NCBI RefSeq assembly: GCF_003704095.1
Contig: NW_020845355.1
Location: 1 to 64,000 of the forward strand
DNA length: 64,000 bases
Source of the DNA: Pocillopora damicornis
Taxonomy: Eukaryota
Direction of reading: 5' to 3'
The position numbers are program-made. This document shows positions 1 through 63,200 of this stretch, piece after piece (the stretch's first letter is position 1; the number at the start of each line of letters is the position of its first letter).

Positions 1-3000
1 TGGTATGGATTTTCTTATAGAACATAAAGGTTGATTATGGGATCCTGTATAGAATTCTTCGTATCGAACCAACAAAATTCCAGATCACATTACACACCGA
101 CATCAGCGAATTCTCTTTTGATACGTGTTTCGAATTCAGGCAAAGGTTCAGACAGGTCAATGTCTTTTATGGGCTCAGCGCTGGCTCCCGAACAACTGGC
201 TTCCCCATAATCTTTCATTAGATGTCTTGCGAAAAAAGATGTTTCTAGAGGGCCAATAAAGCTGTTGTTGTTTAATTAACGAATGGCTTCCATGTAAATC
301 GATTTTGTACTTTCTCTGTTGACCTGTAACTTTTGAAGAGCTCAACTTCTTTCTTAGTTCGGTCGGCCACTTCCGAATCCTCGTCGTCTGCCGACTGTAT
401 GAGTCGTTTTTATACTTCCGAATAATTTGCTTTTGGTAGGGCCTGAATCGTCGCTACAGCAACAGGAAGAAAAATGACTGCTACAAGCAACAGAATGTTC
501 GAACGGCTCACTTCACTTCACTTCGGCTCACTTTCACTTGAACAAATTTCAATAATACTCGCTTCAACTTTGCGTCATTTGGAAATCTTTGCATTGTATG
601 CCCAGCTTTGTNNNNNNNNNNNNNNNNNNNNNNNNNNNNNNNNNNNNNNNNNNNNNNNNNNNNNNNNNNNNNNNNNNNNNNNNNNNNNNNNNNNNNNNNN
701 NNNNNNNNNNNNNNNNNNNNNNNNNNNNNNNNNNNNNNNNNNNNNNNNNNNNNNNNNNNNNNNNNNNNNNNNNNNNNNNNNNNNNNNNNNNNNNNNNNNN
801 NNNNNNNNNNNNNNNNATTTGGAAGAGCTTTTGCAAAGTGAAAATTGACTTTTGAGGAAAAAAGAATGGTACCCTTGGTGTACTTGATATATTTACTAAA
901 ATCTATATGAAAAGAAAATAAACGTTTTTTGGGTTTACATGTCCTTTAAACAGAAACCAGACAGTTCGCTATTACGTCAAGTTGAGTTAATAGCCTTGGT
1001 TCAGCGAGCATCAGTTTACTATCAATCAGANNNNNNNNNNNNNNNNNNNNNNNNNNNNNNNNNNNNNNNNNNNNNNNNNNNNNNNNNNNNNNNNNNNNNN
1101 NNNNNNNNNNNNNNNNNNNNNNNNNNNNNNNNNNNNNNNNNNNNNNNNNNNNNNNNNNNNNNNNNNNNNNNNNNNNNNNNNNNNNNNNNNNNNNNNNNNN
1201 NNNNNNNNNNNNNNNNNNNNNNNNNNNNNNNNNNNNNNNNNNNNNNNNNNNNNNNNNNNNNNNNNNNNNNNNNNNNNNNNNNNNNNNNNNNNNNNNNNNN
1301 NNNNNNNNNNNNNNNNNNNNNNNNNNNNNNNNNNNNNNNNNNNNNNNNNNNNNNNNNNNNNNNNNNNNNNNNNNNNNNNNNNNNNNNNNNNNNNNNNNNN
1401 NNNNNNNNNNNNNNNNNNNNNNNNNNNNNNAGAAAGAGAAGTATTTCTCTGCGACCTAAAAAAGGAGGATTACATAAAGAAAATGAAGAAATTGGGATAA
1501 TAGATATAAAAGGGTAAAAACTGATAATGTGGATATTATCGAGAAATAATATATATTACCTGTTTATTCTGTCAGAACAGGTAGTTAAACCTTTCATTTA
1601 TTTCATTCATTTAATTTTTGTTCTTGTTTTAAATTTTTTTTTATTCTAAAGGGGTATTCTTGCATCAAGGAATAAAGCCACATTAACCAGCTGCCATGAA
1701 TTTTAACTCGTGGAACGTGTTTTGGCGCTGGTGTTTTGCATCATTAGCGACTTTGATTGTTTTTGGAAATAATTTAACCATCTGGATATTTCTTGAACAG
1801 AGACGTCGCAAACGTGCTTCTTTTCTTCTAATCAGCTTGTCTTTTGCTGATTTACTGGTTGGATTGTTTTCAATCCCTCTTTTGATAACAGCATATGAAA
1901 CATCTTCGGTGGCTATACGCAAGATATTCTTTCTTGTTGACGTTTTCACAGCCTTAGCTTCCATCTACACCCTTGGCGTAATCTCCCTAGAGAGGATGTT
2001 TGCCGTCGCTTGGCCTCATCATCACAGAACTTTGAAACTTCGTACTTACACCTTTGCCGTTGCCACACCGTGGATCATGGCAGCAATATTCGCTGTTCTA
2101 TTTTTAACACTTGAAAATATACTGGGTCTTCTTATTTTTTGTCCTGCCGCTCCTCTTTTAGTTATGTGTCTTGCATATCATGTTATCTGGAAGAAACAGA
2201 GATCATCGATAGGTAACCAAAATCATTTCGGCTTAAGAGAAGCGAGATTAACAAAGACTTTATTTCTGATAGCAGGAGCTTCTCTTTTCGCCTGGCTTCC
2301 ATTTCAAATTCTGAATGTATTGACATATTTAGGCGTGACCGCAATTTTTCCTCATTTGCAATTGACTGTCTTGCTCGTTAGGTTATTACAATTTAGCAAT
2401 TCTCTTGTAAACGTGGTGATCTATCCTTTCCGAATGCCAGAATTTAGGAATACCCTCTGGCGGATATTGCGCTGTTACCGTCGATTCAGCTCTCGGGTCC
2501 ATCCGCTGGCTGGGTCTGGGTCAGTTATATCCCTTTTACGACTCACAAACTTCATGTTTTCCTCACAGAACCCCAATCAGGATAGCCCAGTTTGATTCTT
2601 TTTTTAAATCTCTAGTCTTCGATTAACATCGCGACATGCATAAACATAAAAAATAAATTACAGCACGTTTGGGGTTCTGTTTGCTTTTCAGCTGAGACTG
2701 TCAGAGTAGGATTGGAGTAAGGCTTAGATTTATAGTGTAGGGTTGATAAAGTTTCCTATTGTTTATAATTAGAAAAGGAAGCACATCTAAATTCTTCTAG
2801 TTACGCAAATACTGCATACAGGAATTCTAAGTGATCAATGTCTTCAGAACTGCCGGGGAAAATGTTTATTGAAGAGCAAAGTCTGATTTGATAATATTCT
2901 AATTTTTAATGAATTTTAAACATACAATGAAAATTAAAAATACCCTTATCCCATAAGTATTCATCTCCATGCAATCGATTTGGAAAGAACAAAACAAATA

Positions 3001-60216: not shown

Positions 60217-63200
60217 TCATGAATGACTTTTGAATATTTGGAAAAGTTTGTTTTAACCTAATAGGACGCGATAGACTGGTGTGCGGGGGGGGGGATAACC
60301 ACACAAAAAAAGATTCTACTATAAACACTCTTCCTTTCTTTTTTTGAGTCCGAGCAGGAAACTCACAATTCATTGAAGAGCGTGGCTTATTTTCACATTT
60401 TTGCCCACTACTGTCATTCAGTTTACGTTTTTGTCCGCTTTTCTTTCACGAACACGTGAAGTGAAACAGAAGTTTTCTTTACCCATATCAAGTTTGACAA
60501 TGCTGAGAACAGCCTGAGGATCTTTGAAACAAATTTTCCTTCTTAGACGAATTTTGTCCGGGTTTGACGAGACGAGCGGTTTGACGATTGTGTCATTAGG
60601 AGTCACGGATCAATTTCTGGTTTAATTTTTTTTTCCCCTTAAACAAAACAAAACAAATAGAAGAAGCAATCCTTTGATTTCTTTCATCATTCAAATCGAG
60701 CTGTAGCTTGTACATATTTCAAATGAGCTAAAGTTGATCCATTGGTTCATCTAACAGTCTTGTTGCATGCATATCACTTTTGATGTATGACTTGGTAAAA
60801 GCAATGTAATTGAATAGTGCTGTTCCAAATATCAGTATAATTTACTGACTCGTCATGNNNNNNNNNNNNNNNNNNNNNNNNNNNNNNNNNNNNNNNNNNN
60901 NNNNNNNNNNNNNNNNNNNNNNNNNNNNNNNNNNNNNNNNNNNNNNNNNNNNNNNNNACTTCTCCGGTTACATTCATTAAATCTGCAAACCAGTGTAGCA
61001 TCAAACTATGTATGATTCAAATTATTTTCTTTATAGAAGCTTCTTAAATCAACATCTGCCGACTGCATTCGTATATTTTCCTATACATAGAAATTACCTG
61101 GTTCTGTTTTCTTTTCCTATGGGAAGGAAGGTGTTGGTGGTTTTGGTTCTGTTACAGTGTATATATGATTAAAAATTTTTCTTTAAAGAGATCTGGCACA
61201 CGACTGAGGAATATACTCTACCAACGTACTGTATTCTGATATGTTTGTACTAATTCGACAATTATACCAGGAAATATCATGAACATTTCTACGAAACATT
61301 ACATAAGTTACGTTCCCTTCTACTTTTAGCGGTAGGATGTTATATCAGAAACTTTGAAAATCTACAAGACCTGTACGTTCGCTTCGCCCTCATGCTTTGC
61401 AATCTCCTTTTCATTAATTAAGGCAGCTACATTTCGTAGATATCTTGCCTTTTCACGGTGACAACAAAGCAGGTTCTGAAATTGCTTTCGAAATGCGCCA
61501 ATAGTAGAGGAAAGTTGTTAACAAAGCTGCAATTCTTGGACAGGTTTCAAAGGAAAATCGAAACCAGAATGTAAGTGCCCGCATTGGTATCCAGCAACAC
61601 AAAAAGCCTGCGGCCACGTACAACAGCACCCGATTAATGTTTATTTCTTTCATTGAGTTGGTTACTGAACCATTTTCAGCCCTGTTCTGTAGCGACGAGA
61701 TAACATTGTGTTCATGCTCATTGGTTTCATTTGAGAAATATCTTTAATAACTAAAATAGCGATACTTTATGGTAAAACAAGAAGCAATCCGACAGCGATA
61801 CGATAATGAACGATTTGACTCTCTCCACTTGGGTAAGTAAAGGAGCACGTTACATAACTTCGGATAAATGTTTGCCGAATTTGTGACTTGGGCAATGAAC
61901 AGGTAAATTACAAGGGAAAGCTACAAGCAACTCAACCATATCTTAGATCTGTGGGGCGAAAAAATCTTCTTGTAGTGGTTGGTCTTCACAATTTTTACAT
62001 ATCAGTTGAACGCGATTAAACCATCAGTTGCCGGGGTCACGTCAGTCGTGAGTATACCNNNNNNNNNNNNNNNNNNNNNNNNNNNNNNNNNNNNNNNNNN
62101 NNNNNNNNNNNNNNNNNNNNNNNNNNNNNNNNNNNNNNNNNNNNNNNNNNNNNNNNNNATCATAAGCTGTACAAGGCCGAGCTCTCAATAATCTTTCCTA
62201 ATATGTTCAAAACAGAAAGAGAGGTACCTTTAATTACTTTTAAGGCTCAGGGTGGTCTTTTTCAGCCGCTTTGTCNNNNNNNNNNNNNNNNNNNNNNNNN
62301 NNNNNNNNNNNNNNNNNNNNNNNNNNNNNNNNNNNNNNNNNNNNNNNNNNNNNNNNNNNNNNNNNNNNNNNNNNNNNNNNNNNNNNNNNNNNNNNNNNNN
62401 NNNNNNNNNNNNNNNNNNNNNNNNNNNNNNNNNNNNNNNNNNNNNNNNNNNNNNNNNNNNNNNNNNNNNNNNNNNNNNNNNNNNNNNNNNNNNNNNNNNN
62501 NNNNNNNNNNNNNNNNNNNNNNNNNNNNNNNNNNNNNNNNNNNNNNNNNNNNNNNNNNNNNNNNNNNNNNNNNNNNNNNNNNNNNNNNNNNNNNNNNNNN
62601 NNNNNNNNNNNNNNNNNNNNNNNNNNNNNNNNNNNNNNNNNNNNNNNNNNNNNNNNNNNNNNNNNNNNNNNNNNNNNNNNNNNNNNNNNNNNNNNNNNNN
62701 NNNNNNNNNNNNNNNNNNNNNNNNNNNNNNNNNNNNNNNNNNNNNNNNNNNNNNNNNTATTTTGATGAGTTACGTTATCAATTCCCAATAGTGTTGTTTA
62801 ACTCATTCAGTAAGGTAAAAGATGGTTTGGTTGGAATTGTTGTCTTTCAATTCTACCAGTCTTCACCCGTCACAGTGCAGAGAGTGGTTTAAAAATTAGG
62901 TTTAAAAAGCGAAAGATTGATTACTAGAGACATTATCTGTAACTAACCTTAATTCCACAAGAAAATTTCCCCAAAACTGNNNNNNNNNNNNNNNNNNNNN
63001 NNNNNNNNNNNNNNNNNNNNNNNNNNNNNNNNNNNNNNNNNNNNNNNNNNNNNNNNNNNNNNNNNNNNNNNNNNNNNNNNNNNNNNNNNNNNNNNNNNNN
63101 NNNNNNNNNNNNNNNNNNNNNNNNNNNNNNNNNNNNNNNNNNNNNNNNNNNNNNNNNNNNNNNNNNNNNNNNNNNNNNNNNNNNNNNNNNNNNNNNNNNN

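What the first reader, a model, noticed from the sequence alone, without database searches (positions are those of the whole stretch)
1696..62058. Two-family, birth-and-death cluster of about 19 single-exon class A GPCR loci, a candidate chemosensory/neuromodulatory receptor array
Seen: 4 intact family B copies and ~15 family A copies in every state of decay. The gap-free contig 14943-29057 links B4 to A3, and 34789-40777 carries three family A copies head to tail, so linkage and tandem expansion are real. Established: tandem single-exon GPCR arrays with many pseudogenes typify chemosensory families such as vertebrate ORs and TAARs. Inference: this may be a lineage-specific receptor repertoire for amines or indoles in an animal whose chemoreceptors are poorly defined.
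[Added by the scan's program, not by the reader: the finding's places include an assembly gap (unread letters, written N; its length is only estimated) at 4344 to 4443, 6589 to 6688, 10343 to 10442, 13624 to 13723, 14843 to 14942, 29058 to 29157. Whether the letters on both sides are continuous or in frame is not known: test that first.]
Basis: partly seen in the sequence, partly recalled or inferred. Interest (0 to 1): 0.7.

Follow-up and report, generated by a model that had tools for sequence, protein, structure and literature searches.

The report
Tandem GPCR gene cluster in coral
This piece of a stony-coral genome holds a real, repeatedly duplicated cluster of two families of rhodopsin-type receptor genes, some intact and some dead; such expansions are already known to be common in corals, and what these receptors sense is still unknown.

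Summary
The window comes from a stony coral: the best named relatives are Pocillopora verrucosa (95%) and Stylophora pistillata (82%). It carries 4 intact family B genes and 15 family A loci plus 2 older relics, all class A GPCRs (Pfam PF00001, E 1e-20 to 1e-45).

Only 2 A copies are demonstrably intact. Six carry real stops or frameshifts. Seven abut assembly gaps, so five of them cannot be scored. The span holds 38 gaps, and only two gap-free contigs prove physical linkage (B4-A3; A7-A8-A9).

Most copies differ by 7-28% in DNA, too much for alleles. A1/A2 (97%) and A12/A13 remain ambiguous. A8 and A11 share two stop codons, so a dead gene was itself duplicated. Trees interleave the copies with other corals' genes, which fits birth-and-death evolution.

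Variation sits in the outward-facing half of the receptors. In recent B duplicates the replacement:silent count is 24:3 outside against 6:9 inside.

Both families carry the TM3 aspartate typical of receptors for cationic ligands (B 42/43, A 33/46). They are not opsins.

Ligand and tissue are untested. Tandem rhodopsin-like GPCR expansion is already reported as the commonest amplified family in corals, so this is a new member of a known kind.

The parts
1696..2595 (+). B1, intact family B receptor gene (299 aa)
   Evidence: ATG-to-stop ORF; PF00001 E 8.7e-22; 67% aa identity to B2; 97% to P0128
5940..6588 (+). A1, family A copy with a 1-nt deletion (frameshift at codon ~132), cut at codon 216 by gap 6589-6688
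   Evidence: It is 97.1% identical in DNA to A2, in mirror orientation
6689..7328 (-). A2, family A copy, open for codons 1-213, then cut by the same gap
   Evidence: 95% aa identity to a Pocillopora verrucosa protein, P0057
11624..12517 (-). B2, intact family B gene (297 aa)
   Evidence: PF00001 E 1.6e-24. Its DNA is 92.7% identical to B4 in inverted orientation
13790..14653 (+). B3, intact family B gene (287 aa, in-frame 10-codon deletion in the C-tail), alone on the 1,119-bp contig 13724-14842
   Evidence: 90.3% DNA identity to the B4 region
15056..15949 (+). B4, intact family B gene (297 aa), on the same gap-free contig as A3
23983..24942 (+). A3, intact family A gene (319 aa)
   Evidence: PF00001 E 4.1e-39, profile positions 1-260 of 260; 82% to Stylophora P0033
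26985..27212 (+). Relic r1: an old TM6-TM7 fragment of a family-A-like gene
   Evidence: tblastn 43% over 76 aa, E 7e-11. It lies inside a 1.8-kb inverted duplication, 26655-28487 / 32527-30726, 90% identical
31968..32192 (-). Relic r2: the duplicate of r1
   Evidence: tblastn 41% over 75 aa, E 3e-6
33055..34068 (+). A6, intact family A gene (337 aa)
   Evidence: PF00001 E 8.6e-45; model with pLDDT 75 and pTM 0.72 showing 7 helices plus helix 8; 99% to P0001
34789..35053 (-). A7, family A codons 1-88, open, then cut by gap 34689-34788
   Evidence: 93.7% DNA identity to A14 including 340 nt upstream
35936..36944 (-). A8, pseudogene: stops at codons 56, 80 and 229, plus 4-nt and 1-nt deletions
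   Evidence: It shares stops 80 and 229 with A11, and 2.6 kb of DNA with it at 91.5% identity
39640..40656 (-). A9, pseudogene: TGA at codon 150 and a 2-nt deletion in the NPxxY motif
42744..42890 (-). A10, an A9-like N-terminal piece with TGA at codon 21, on a 147-bp contig between gaps
   Evidence: Its 3' flank repeats that of A9 (38509-39599 ~ 40912-42042)
49026..50039 (+). A11, pseudogene: 5 stops and a 1-nt deletion; a duplicate of the already dead A8
   Evidence: A8-A11 dN/dS is 0.87
51668..52021 (+). A12, two open fragments (51668-51827 and 51895-52021) on tiny contigs, about 95% like A13
   Evidence: It cannot be told apart from a second haplotype of A13
53352..54048 (+). A13, family A codons 94 to stop, open; the 5' part is lost in gap 53252-53351
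   Evidence: (PF00001 E 3e-20)
54693..55617 (-). A14, family A codons 1-308, open; the last ~11 codons are lost in gap 54593-54692
   Evidence: 91.3% DNA identity to A3 over 1.4 kb; A3-A14 dN/dS 0.25
61374..62058 (-). A15, heavily decayed pseudogene (3 stops, 5 frameshifting indels), also cut by gap 62059-62158

Best explanation
This is a genuine birth-and-death cluster of two cnidarian class A (rhodopsin-like) GPCR families in a pocilloporid-like stony coral.

Shown:
- Units of about 1 to 4.5 kb, each a coding sequence without introns plus its flanks, have been copied repeatedly in direct and inverted orientation.
- Some copies stayed under purifying selection and others died.
- At least one dead copy was duplicated again (A8/A11).

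Shown at the protein level:
- The cytoplasmic, G-protein-facing half is conserved. Family A has N/D/R/W/P landmarks, NRY, CWxP and NPxxY. Family B has ERM, W6.48 and N-V-x-x-Y.
- The outward, ligand-facing half and the loops vary.

Inferred:
- The intact copies (B1-B4, A3, A6, probably A13 and A14) are working G-protein-coupled receptors.
- Their buried TM3 aspartate binds small cationic ligands, meaning amine-like molecules or basic peptide ends.
- Duplication followed by change on the ligand side tunes new specificities.

On function I lean to sensing of fast-changing cues from outside, from microbes or from symbionts, rather than a fixed internal transmitter. The reasons are:
- a pseudogene share of at least 6 of 15 family A loci;
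- moderate dN/dS of 0.3-0.4;
- copy turnover.

I put about 0.9 on the genomic and evolutionary part and about 0.4 on the outward-sensing part.
For: Family membership: PF00001 matched 7 of 7 ORFs.

Paralogy rather than allelism:
- DNA identity between copies is 72-94% and dS is 0.06-0.85.
- Genome-wide heterozygosity is reported as 1.14% for a Pocillopora and 2.3% for a Porites (PMC10236652, passage read).

Linkage: B4, A3 and r1 lie on one gap-free contig, and A7, A8 and A9 on another.

Decay: lesions are listed. A8 and A11 share stops at codons 80 and 229 and have dN/dS 0.87.

Birth-and-death pattern in the trees (FastTree, 121 rows; IQ-TREE quick, 47 rows, 36 rows):
- A2 pairs with P. verrucosa P0057 (support 99).
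- A3/A14 are sister to Stylophora P0033 (99).
- A8/A11 group with P0016 (100).
- Each B copy pairs with a different database protein.

Constraint: dN/dS is 0.25-0.41 among open A copies and 0.36-0.40 between B1 and the other B copies.

Ligand-side variation:
- Column entropy is higher in the outer than the inner TM halves: 1.13 vs 0.75 in A (p 3e-5) and 1.16 vs 0.63 in B (p 1.5e-6).
- B2 vs B4 replacement:silent counts are 24:3 outside and 6:9 inside (Fisher p 0.0014).
- The inner half is significantly constrained (p 0.002).

Pocket residue:
- Asp 3.32 is present in 42 of 43 B and 33 of 46 A sequences.
- It aligns with the TM3 Asp of the histamine H2 receptor and the beta-1 adrenoceptor.

Literature:
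- Coral neurons express many rhodopsin-type GPCRs (PMC8162421, passages read).
- GPCRs are enriched at the aboral, settlement-sensing pole of coral larvae (10.1101/2024.10.30.621027, passages read).
Against: - There are no expression or ligand data of any kind here.
- The outer-half dN/dS above 1 in B2-B4 (2.65) is not significantly above neutrality (binomial p 0.079).
- Within-window A pairs do not all show outer above inner. A6-A13 gives 0.18 vs 0.37, and A3-A14 gives 0.25 vs 0.24.
- The topology used for family B rests on a low-confidence model (pLDDT 52).
- Higher variability on the outer side is usual for class A families in general, so it does not single out chemoreception.
- Asp 3.32 also occurs in opioid and other peptide receptors. 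Those rank close behind amine receptors.
- Cnidarian neuropeptide GPCRs have also expanded strongly (PMC11087051, passages read).
- Most of the order and spacing of the copies rests on scaffolding across 38 gaps.
Confidence: 0.6

Rival explanations
1. The intact genes are receptors for the coral's own neuropeptides or neuromodulators. On this view they are internal signalling paralogs, not sensors of outside cues, and the array reflects the general expansion of peptidergic signalling in cnidarians.
For: - Nematostella has over 1,000 class A GPCRs. 31 of 161 tested respond to its own neuropeptides, often several paralogs per peptide (PMC11087051, abstract and passages read).
- Opioid, NPFF, NPY, orexin and somatostatin receptors are among the near hits for family A.
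- Some A lineages are conserved between pocilloporid genera.
- Coral neurons express many GPCRs (PMC8162421, passages read).
Against: - At least 6 of 15 A loci are dead, and dN/dS is 0.3-0.4.
- The pocket residue 3.32 switches between D, A, T and G among paralogs.
- Family B has almost no N-terminus, and its second outer loop is only about 4 residues in the low-confidence model. The W4.50-P5.50 distance is 27-36 residues, against 52-54 in A. That leaves little surface for a peptide; this last step is my inference.
Confidence: 0.3
2. The copy number is largely an assembly artefact. On this view uncollapsed haplotypes and mis-scaffolded short contigs inflate a locus of a few genes.
For: - There are 38 gaps in the span, and 45% of 40778-53351 is N.
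- A1 and A2 are 97.1% identical mirror images meeting at a gap.
- A12b and A13 differ by dS 0.038 over only 42 codons.
- Allelic duplications are a known problem of fragmented coral assemblies (PMC10236652, passages read).
Against: - All other pairs differ by 6-28% in DNA, several times the reported heterozygosity.
- Two gap-free contigs each carry at least two copies.
- A1/A2 homology ends about 100 nt upstream of the start codon, with a 310-nt indel, although both contigs run on for more than 1 kb.
- Each main lineage has its own 92-99% counterpart among database proteins.
- The same paper reports that short-read assemblies tend to lose tandem copies, not gain them.
Confidence: 0.08
3. The family A part of the cluster is a decaying remnant with little present function. 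On this view only family B is in use.
For: - Only 2 of 15 A loci are provably intact.
- A8/A11 evolve neutrally (dN/dS 0.87).
- A15 and the relics r1 and r2 are heavily eroded.
Against: - A3-A14 has dN/dS 0.25 at dS 0.158, and A3, A6 and A13 pairs give 0.30-0.36.
- All class A landmarks are kept in A3, A6, A13 and A14.
- A2 is 95% identical to an annotated P. verrucosa protein, and A6 is 99% identical to P0001.
Confidence: 0.05

Closest known systems
Tandemly duplicated rhodopsin-like GPCR orthogroups of reef corals (Noel et al. 2023, Genome Biol 24:123, PMC10236652)
   Same: A scleractinian genome, the PF00001 domain, clustered tandem copies and genus-level differences in copy number. The paper reports GPCR, rhodopsin-like, as the commonest domain among coral-amplified orthogroups (34 of 192), and most of those orthogroups are rich in tandem duplicates (passages read).
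   Different: The paper gives counts per orthogroup. In the passages I read it gives no anatomy of a single cluster, no pseudogene census and no pocket residues.
Cnidarian-specific GPCR clade next to the bilaterian monoamine receptors (Goulty et al. 2023, PMC10244343)
   Same: Amine, adenosine and melatonin receptors are the best profile matches among solved structures. The TM3 Asp is kept in most members. The function of that clade is likewise unknown (passages read).
   Different: Membership was not tested: I had no reference set to place A and B in that tree. Peptide receptors score nearly as well for family A.
Vertebrate odorant receptor and TAAR gene arrays
   Same: Coding regions without introns, tandem arrays, many pseudogenes, birth-and-death evolution and variation concentrated on the ligand side. 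TAARs also rely on Asp 3.32; that point is from my recall.
   Different: These are not homologous subfamilies. The odorant-receptor model PF13853 reaches its cut-off in only 1 of 7 ORFs (27.2 vs 27), while PF00001 scores 73-154 bits. Sensory-neuron expression is unknown here, and the array is far smaller.
Nematostella neuropeptide GPCR expansions (Thiel et al. 2024, PMC11087051)
   Same: Cnidarian-specific class A expansions with no 1:1 bilaterian orthologs, most of them orphans.
   Different: Those receptors were chosen for likeness to peptide receptors and were tested with peptides. Nothing links A or B to any of the 31 deorphanised receptors.
Lineage-specific class A chemosensory subsets in Lophotrochozoa (PMC11886862)
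   Same: The same argument: lineage-specific, dynamic class A subsets put forward as chemoreceptors. I saw only the title and the start of the abstract.
   Different: A different phylum, and I did not read the paper's evidence.

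Membership tests
Class A (rhodopsin-like) GPCR, Pfam PF00001 | Match to PF00001 above its gathering score | tested here: met
   7 of 7 ORFs scored 73-154 bits against a cut-off of 30.5
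Class A (rhodopsin-like) GPCR, Pfam PF00001 | Seven transmembrane helices plus helix 8 | tested here: met
   A6 model: pLDDT 75, pTM 0.72, 7 helices plus H8, TM-score 0.66-0.72 to solved class A receptors. The B2 model also shows 7 helices plus H8, but at pLDDT 52, so for family B this is only indicative.
Class A (rhodopsin-like) GPCR, Pfam PF00001 | Landmark residues N1.50, D2.50, R3.50, W4.50, P5.50, W6.48/P6.50 and N7.49-P7.50-Y7.53. I assigned the numbering from motifs and from the alignments; the numbering convention itself is recalled. | tested here: met
   Family A: all present in A3, A6, A13 and A14 and invariant or at least 90% conserved across 46 sequences, with N instead of D at 3.49 in 45 of 46. 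Family B departs at two sites: ERM instead of DRY (43 of 43) and Val instead of Pro at 7.50 (43 of 43).
Class A (rhodopsin-like) GPCR, Pfam PF00001 | Disulfide between Cys 3.25 and the second outer loop | tested here: inconclusive
   Family A has both cysteines in 46 of 46 sequences. Family B has no Cys at the aligned TM3 position in 0 of 43 sequences. In the low-confidence B2 model the loop is about 4 residues, and the W4.50-P5.50 distance is 27-36 residues.
Amine (monoamine-type) receptors | Asp at 3.32 in TM3 | tested here: met
   Family B: 42 of 43 sequences, aligned with the TM3 Asp of the beta-1 adrenoceptor. Family A: 33 of 46 sequences, but only 5 of the 11 window copies that cover the site, aligned with the TM3 Asp of the H2 receptor. 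This residue is necessary but not sufficient, because opioid receptors have it too (recalled).
Amine (monoamine-type) receptors | Orthology to a bilaterian amine-receptor clade | not tested
   No named reference set could be brought in. Goulty et al. (PMC10244343, passages read) place most such clades in Bilateria only, with a separate cnidarian-specific sister clade.
Opsins | Retinal-binding Lys at 7.43 | tested here: not met
   0 of 46 family A sequences (F 29, Y 16, L 1) and 0 of 43 family B sequences (F 22, Y 17, C 3, N 1). This holds although squid rhodopsin and opsin clusters appear among the look-alikes.
Vertebrate-type odorant receptors (Pfam PF13853) | Match above the gathering score of PF13853 | tested here: not met
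   A3 scored 27.2 against 27, A6 23.5 and A13 22.9. No family B copy matched. PF00001 scores are several times higher.
Melatonin receptors | NRY in place of DRY (hallmark recalled), and orthology | tested here: inconclusive
   NRY is present in 45 of 46 family A sequences. MT1, MT2 and the melatonin-related receptor score E 1e-31 to 1e-35, behind the H2 receptor at 1e-39. Orthology was not tested.
Birth-and-death receptor array (operational definition) | Several paralogs physically linked on uninterrupted sequence | tested here: met
   B4, A3 and r1 lie on contig 14943-29057, and A7, A8 and A9 on contig 34789-40777.
Birth-and-death receptor array (operational definition) | Pseudogenes with real lesions beside intact copies | tested here: met
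   Family A: 6 of 15 loci have stops or frameshifts within read sequence. Family B: 0 of 4.
Birth-and-death receptor array (operational definition) | Paralogs group with other genomes' genes rather than with each other, meaning no concerted evolution | tested here: met
   Most partner proteins are unnamed records, so it is not known whether they are orthologs in other species or the same species.
Chemosensory receptor family | Expression in sensory cells, or a response to external cues | not testable with these tools
   No expression or ligand data are available here.
Chemosensory receptor family | Positive selection at ligand-contact sites | tested here: inconclusive
   The outer half has a higher replacement:silent ratio than the inner half in recent B pairs (p 0.0014 and 0.012). 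However, dN/dS above 1 is not significant (p 0.079), and A pairs are mixed. No site models were run.

The most novel reading that the evidence does not exclude
Family B and the Asp-bearing family A paralogs may belong to the cnidarian-specific sister clade of the bilaterian monoamine receptors. Family B has Asp 3.32 in 42 of 43 sequences, almost no N-terminus and a minimal second outer loop. On this reading they act as a coral, TAAR-like set of amine sensors. Duplication plus change on the ligand side would tune them to different amines from biofilms, symbionts or conspecifics. This would give a molecular handle on the reported effects of catecholamines on coral larval settlement.
Probability: 0.15. 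Interest if true: 0.7.

Novelty: new member of a known kind. Interest (0 to 1): 0.3.

Why it matters
Corals carry hundreds of orphan rhodopsin-type receptors, and tandem duplication is reported as the main way these families grow. No coral receptor of this kind has a known ligand in the papers I read.

This cluster offers a compact, concrete test set of six intact genes from two families, with natural variation at the key pocket residue and dead copies as neutral controls.

If the intact genes prove to be sensors of amines or other small cues, they would bear on two questions: how larvae choose where to settle, and how the host reads its microbes and symbionts.

As it stands, the finding is an ordinary example of a documented coral genome feature. 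The poor assembly limits what can be said about copy number.

Tried and rejected
1. Antisense ORFs. Long ORFs of 88-109 aa lie opposite the 5' part of every B copy and several A copies. Synonymous-codon shuffles give runs as long or longer in 190 to 333 of 500 trials for all 6 genes tested. This is chance, so I dropped it.

2. Fold search. The A6 model matched opioid, dopamine D1, beta-adrenergic, orexin, TAAR13d and melatonin receptors about equally well (TM-score 0.64-0.72 normalised to the query). This does not discriminate between subfamilies.

3. The B2 model was too weak (pLDDT 52) to send to a fold search, so I did not send it.

4. Opsin reading: rejected, because there is no Lys at 7.43.

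5. Odorant-receptor and nematode Srsx/Srx memberships. The matches are weak compared with PF00001 and belong to the same clan, so I did not take them as membership.

6. Pfam on 10 intergenic ORFs of 98-152 aa found no family above its cut-off.

7. Automatic names of the look-alike clusters for family B are mutually inconsistent: adenosine A3-like, somatostatin 5-like, TAAR13c-like, histamine H2-like and cannabinoid 1-like, all cnidarian. I did not use them as evidence of ligand.

8. A 30-aa match to an A9-like C-terminal tail at 41953-42042 runs across a 10-N gap, so I give it little weight.

9. Not used:
- the genome-contig collection (bacteria and archaea only);
- the phage, plasmid and E. 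coli collections;
- Complex prediction;
- the representative-protein search;
- the third homolog search.

The closed metagenome and viral contig collections stayed unchecked.

10. Literature. Searches listed no paper that describes coral class A GPCR arrays as chemoreceptors or takes a census of their pseudogenes. Supplementary tables of PMC10236652, which could name these orthogroups, were closed.

Full report
**What the window is.**
- The 64-kb window has 37.5% G+C and 43 runs of N. 38 of them lie inside the finding's span, and 27 (5,724 of 12,574 bases) lie in 40778-53351.
- The best named relatives of its proteins are from stony corals:
  - Pocillopora verrucosa, 95% over 213 aa to copy A2;
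  - Stylophora pistillata, 82% to A3;
  - Pocillopora meandrina, Oculina patagonica and Desmophyllum pertusum further off.
- I take it for a pocilloporid-like scleractinian. Nothing suggests human sequence.
- Two of the proteins (B2, A6) are already held letter for letter in a public protein atlas.

**Gap test, done first.** None of the six intact ORFs touches a gap. Seven family A loci do.
- A1 (plus strand) and A2 (minus strand) both read into gap 6589-6688 from opposite sides, at codons 216 and 213. The flanks are therefore mirror images and not one gene.
- A7 stops at codon 88 at gap 34689-34788. Beyond that gap lies the 3' flank of A6.
- A13 begins at codon 94 at gap 53252-53351. The 142-bp contig before the gap has no receptor homology.
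- A14 lacks about the last 11 codons at gap 54593-54692.
- A15 begins at codon 94 at gap 62059-62158.
- A12a and A12b are 67 N apart where 111 nt would be needed, and the difference is not a multiple of three.
- So continuity and frame cannot be shown across any of these gaps. The nominal gap lengths are too short for the missing parts. These copies cannot be called intact or dead on the missing parts.
- I did not fill or look up any gap.

**Inventory.**
- PF00001 (7tm_1) matched 7 of 7 receptor ORFs tested, with E from 3e-20 to 8.6e-45.
- Family B has four complete ORFs of 287-299 aa.
- Family A has 15 loci plus two relics:

| State | Copies |
|---|---|
| Intact | A3 (319 aa), A6 (337 aa) |
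| Open as far as read, cut by gaps | A2, A7, A12, A13, A14 |
| Real lesions | A1, A8, A9, A10, A11, A15 |

- The lesions are:
  - A1: 1-nt deletion.
  - A8: 3 stops and 2 frameshifts.
  - A9: TGA at codon 150 and a 2-nt deletion in NPxxY.
  - A10: TGA at codon 21.
  - A11: 5 stops and 1 frameshift.
  - A15: 3 stops and 5 frameshifts.
- Relics r1 and r2 are 41-43% TM6-TM7 fragments inside a 1.8-kb inverted duplication.
- Both contig statements are right. However, A7 is partial and A8 and A9 are dead.

**Paralogs or assembly redundancy?**
- A self-comparison gives 72-94% DNA identity for nearly all pairs.
- The duplicated blocks include flanks:
  - B2/B4, 92.7% over 1,054 nt, inverted;
  - B3/B4, 90.3% over 1,139 nt;
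  - A3/A14, 91.3% over 1,396 nt, within a larger inverted duplication of 20.5-24.9 kb against 54.7-59.2 kb;
  - A8/A11, 91.5% over 2,591 nt;
  - the A9 unit against the A10 unit.
- Synonymous divergence is 0.06-0.16 for the young pairs and 0.4-0.85 for the old ones.
- Reported genome heterozygosity is 1.14% in a Pocillopora and 2.3% in a Porites (PMC10236652, passage read), so these are paralogs.
- Two pairs stay open.
  - A1/A2: 97.1% identical, dS 0.055. Their homology ends about 100 nt upstream of the start, after a 310-nt indel, although both contigs continue. That favours a real recent inverted duplication.
  - A12/A13: only 42 comparable codons.

**Mode of evolution.** I built three trees:

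| Method | Rows | What was left out |
|---|---|---|
| FastTree | 121: 110 of the 120 hits of at least 280 aa, 9 window A copies, 2 B as outgroup | 10 hits under 280 aa |
| IQ-TREE quick | 47: 38 hand-picked hits plus 9 window copies | A1, A7, A10, A12 (short or near-duplicate) |
| IQ-TREE quick | 36: 32 hand-picked hits plus B1-B4 | the other 88 hits |

- The main groupings in the tree agree with the FastTree:
  - A2 with P. verrucosa P0057 (99), inside a group with Stylophora P0064 (100);
  - A3/A14 with P0029 and P0063, sister to Stylophora P0033 (99);
  - A8/A11 with the intact P0016 (100);
  - A9 with P0035 (100);
  - A13 with P0024 and P0026 (99);
  - A6 with P0001 (95).
- Each B copy has its own 92-98% partner.
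- So several lineages predate the split from Stylophora and Pocillopora, while A3/A7/A14, A8/A11, A9/A10 and B2/B3/B4 are younger duplications.
- A8 and A11 share the stops at codons 80 and 229 and have dN/dS 0.87. A pseudogene was therefore copied.
- Open copies show dN/dS 0.25-0.41, and B1 against the other B copies 0.36-0.40. That is purifying but loose selection.
- Most partner proteins are unnamed records. I cannot say whether they are other species or other assemblies of the same one.

**Protein anatomy.**
- A6 folds as a 7-helix receptor with helix 8 (pLDDT 75, pTM 0.72).
- Family A keeps N1.50, D2.50, the C3.25-loop 2 cysteine pair (46 of 46), NRY (45 of 46), W4.50, P5.50, CWxP and NPxxY.
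- Family B is shorter and odder:
  - a few residues before TM1;
  - W4.50 to P5.50 only 27-36 residues, against 52-54 in A;
  - no TM3 cysteine;
  - ERM (43 of 43);
  - Val at 7.50 (43 of 43).
- The B model is poor (pLDDT 52), so its helix limits are approximate.
- Profile searches of solved structures give:
  - family A: histamine H2 (1e-39), octopamine beta-2, muscarinic M5, beta-1 adrenergic, melatonin-related receptor and squid rhodopsin, then opioid and somatostatin receptors (about 1e-33);
  - family B: beta-1 adrenergic (1e-27) and adenosine A2a.
- In those alignments D94 of A6 and D82 of B2 fall on the TM3 Asp of the H2 receptor and the beta-1 adrenoceptor. That this Asp is the amine-binding 3.32 is from my recall.
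- The Asp is present in 42 of 43 B and 33 of 46 A sequences.
- Among the 11 window A copies covering the site:
  - D in 5: A1, A2, A6, A12a, A13;
  - A or T followed by Glu at 3.33 in 4: A3, A14, A8, A11;
  - G in 2: A9, A15.
- There is no Lys at 7.43 in either family, so they are not opsins.

**Where the variation lies.**
- Column entropy is higher in the outer than the inner halves of the helices in both families: A 1.13 against 0.75, p 3e-5; B 1.16 against 0.63, p 1.5e-6.
- Among B2, B3 and B4, 27 of 122 outer positions vary against 9 of 120 inner ones (Fisher p 0.0018).
- Replacement:silent counts are 24:3 outside against 6:9 inside for B2-B4 (p 0.0014), and 26:8 against 6:10 for B2-B3 (p 0.012). 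B3-B4 shows no difference (p 0.47).
- The inner half is significantly constrained (p 0.002). The outer half is not significantly above neutral (p 0.079).
- Within-window A pairs are mixed.
- This fits working receptors that diverge on the ligand side. The same gradient is common in class A families, so it does not prove chemoreception.

**Function: shown and inferred.**
- Shown: the fold and the class A landmarks, constraint on the intact copies, decay of others, and duplication of units with their flanks.
- Inferred: G-protein signalling; a small cationic ligand bound at the TM3 Asp; tuning by duplication and outer-side change.
- I lean to fast-changing, outward or microbe-derived cues, because of the pseudogene share, the loose constraint and the turnover.
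- An internal neuropeptide or modulator role is a serious rival. Nematostella shows large internal peptidergic expansions (PMC11087051, passages read).
- The coral literature I read offers three pointers:
  - many GPCRs in neurons (PMC8162421);
  - GPCR enrichment at the aboral pole of larvae (10.1101/2024.10.30.621027);
  - a suggestion of immune or symbiosis roles (PMC10236652).

**Novelty.**
- Noel et al. 2023 (PMC10236652, passages of several sections read) report that rhodopsin-like GPCR is the commonest domain among coral-amplified orthogroups (34 of 192), and that most amplified families are rich in tandem duplicates.
- The same paper notes that short-read assemblies lose tandem copies and that allelic copies confuse counts.
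- Goulty et al. 2023 (PMC10244343, passages read) describe a cnidarian-specific expansion close to the monoamine receptors, with unknown function.
- A 2025 preprint (10.1101/2025.04.18.649542, passages read) argues for pre-bilaterian amine receptors.
- A review (PMC11526382, passages read) cites a claim of odorant-receptor relatives in Nematostella.
- My searches listed no paper that dissects such a coral cluster or proposes it as a chemoreceptor array.
- So this is a new member of a known kind. It is well described here, but ordinary.

**Left open.**
- True copy number and order across gaps.
- Expression.
- Ligands.
- Placement among named cnidarian and bilaterian clades.
- Site-model tests.
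- Whether these families are among the published amplified orthogroups (supplements closed).
- The closed metagenome and viral collections were not searched.

Noticed in passing
window 4578-4937 (+): A reverse-transcriptase fragment (Pfam RVT_1, E 5.9e-12) lies just after gap 4344-4443, between B1 and A1. It is a retroelement relic inside the cluster.
   Followed up: partly
window 38614-39055 and 41175-41318: A 73-nt tandem repeat, 6 copies and 2 copies, lies downstream of A9 and again downstream of A10. It is part of the roughly 2-kb unit that was duplicated.
   Followed up: partly
window 26655-28487 and 30726-32527: A 1.8-kb inverted segmental duplication (90% identity) carries an old receptor TM6-TM7 relic in each arm. 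Further shared blocks lie around gap 29058-29157: 25793-25973 ~ 29158-29338 and 28317-29001 ~ 29869-30536.
   Followed up: partly
window 20500-24907 and 54693-59238: The duplication that made A3 and A14 extends in pieces for about 3.5 kb upstream of the genes, in inverted orientation, at 79-91% identity.
   Followed up: no
window 10578-11476 and 17096-18110: About 1 kb downstream of B2 matches, at 73% and inverted, a stretch about 1-2 kb downstream of B4. This suggests an older and larger inverted duplication around the B genes.
   Followed up: no
hit tables: Three family-A-like proteins (P0037, P0041, P0062) and three family-B-like proteins (P0203, P0225, P0228) are each listed with a longest contig of 1,229,972 bases. 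This hints that A and B relatives are also linked in another assembly. I did not pursue it, and the records are unnamed.
   Followed up: no
window 1686-1964 (-), 12249-12575 (+), 13741-14058 (-), 14998-15324 (-), 33030-33320 (-), 40391-40693 (+): ORFs of 93-109 aa run antisense to the 5' part of the receptor genes. Synonymous-codon shuffles give runs as long in 190-333 of 500 trials, so this is chance.
   Followed up: yes
window 59170-59394 ~ 62769-62977 and 60095-60519 ~ 63575-64000: Repeated non-coding segments (86-91% identity) lie at the right end of the window, beyond the last receptor copy.
   Followed up: no
window 10194-10341 and 13369-13439: A 60-nt tandem repeat (2.5 copies) abuts gap 10343-10442. 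An (AT)35 microsatellite lies upstream of B2.
   Followed up: no
protein P0040 and P0035 against window 39640-40656: Database proteins 98% (over 289 aa) and 93% identical to the dead copy A9 read through the position of its codon-150 stop. The stop may therefore be recent or polymorphic.
   Followed up: no
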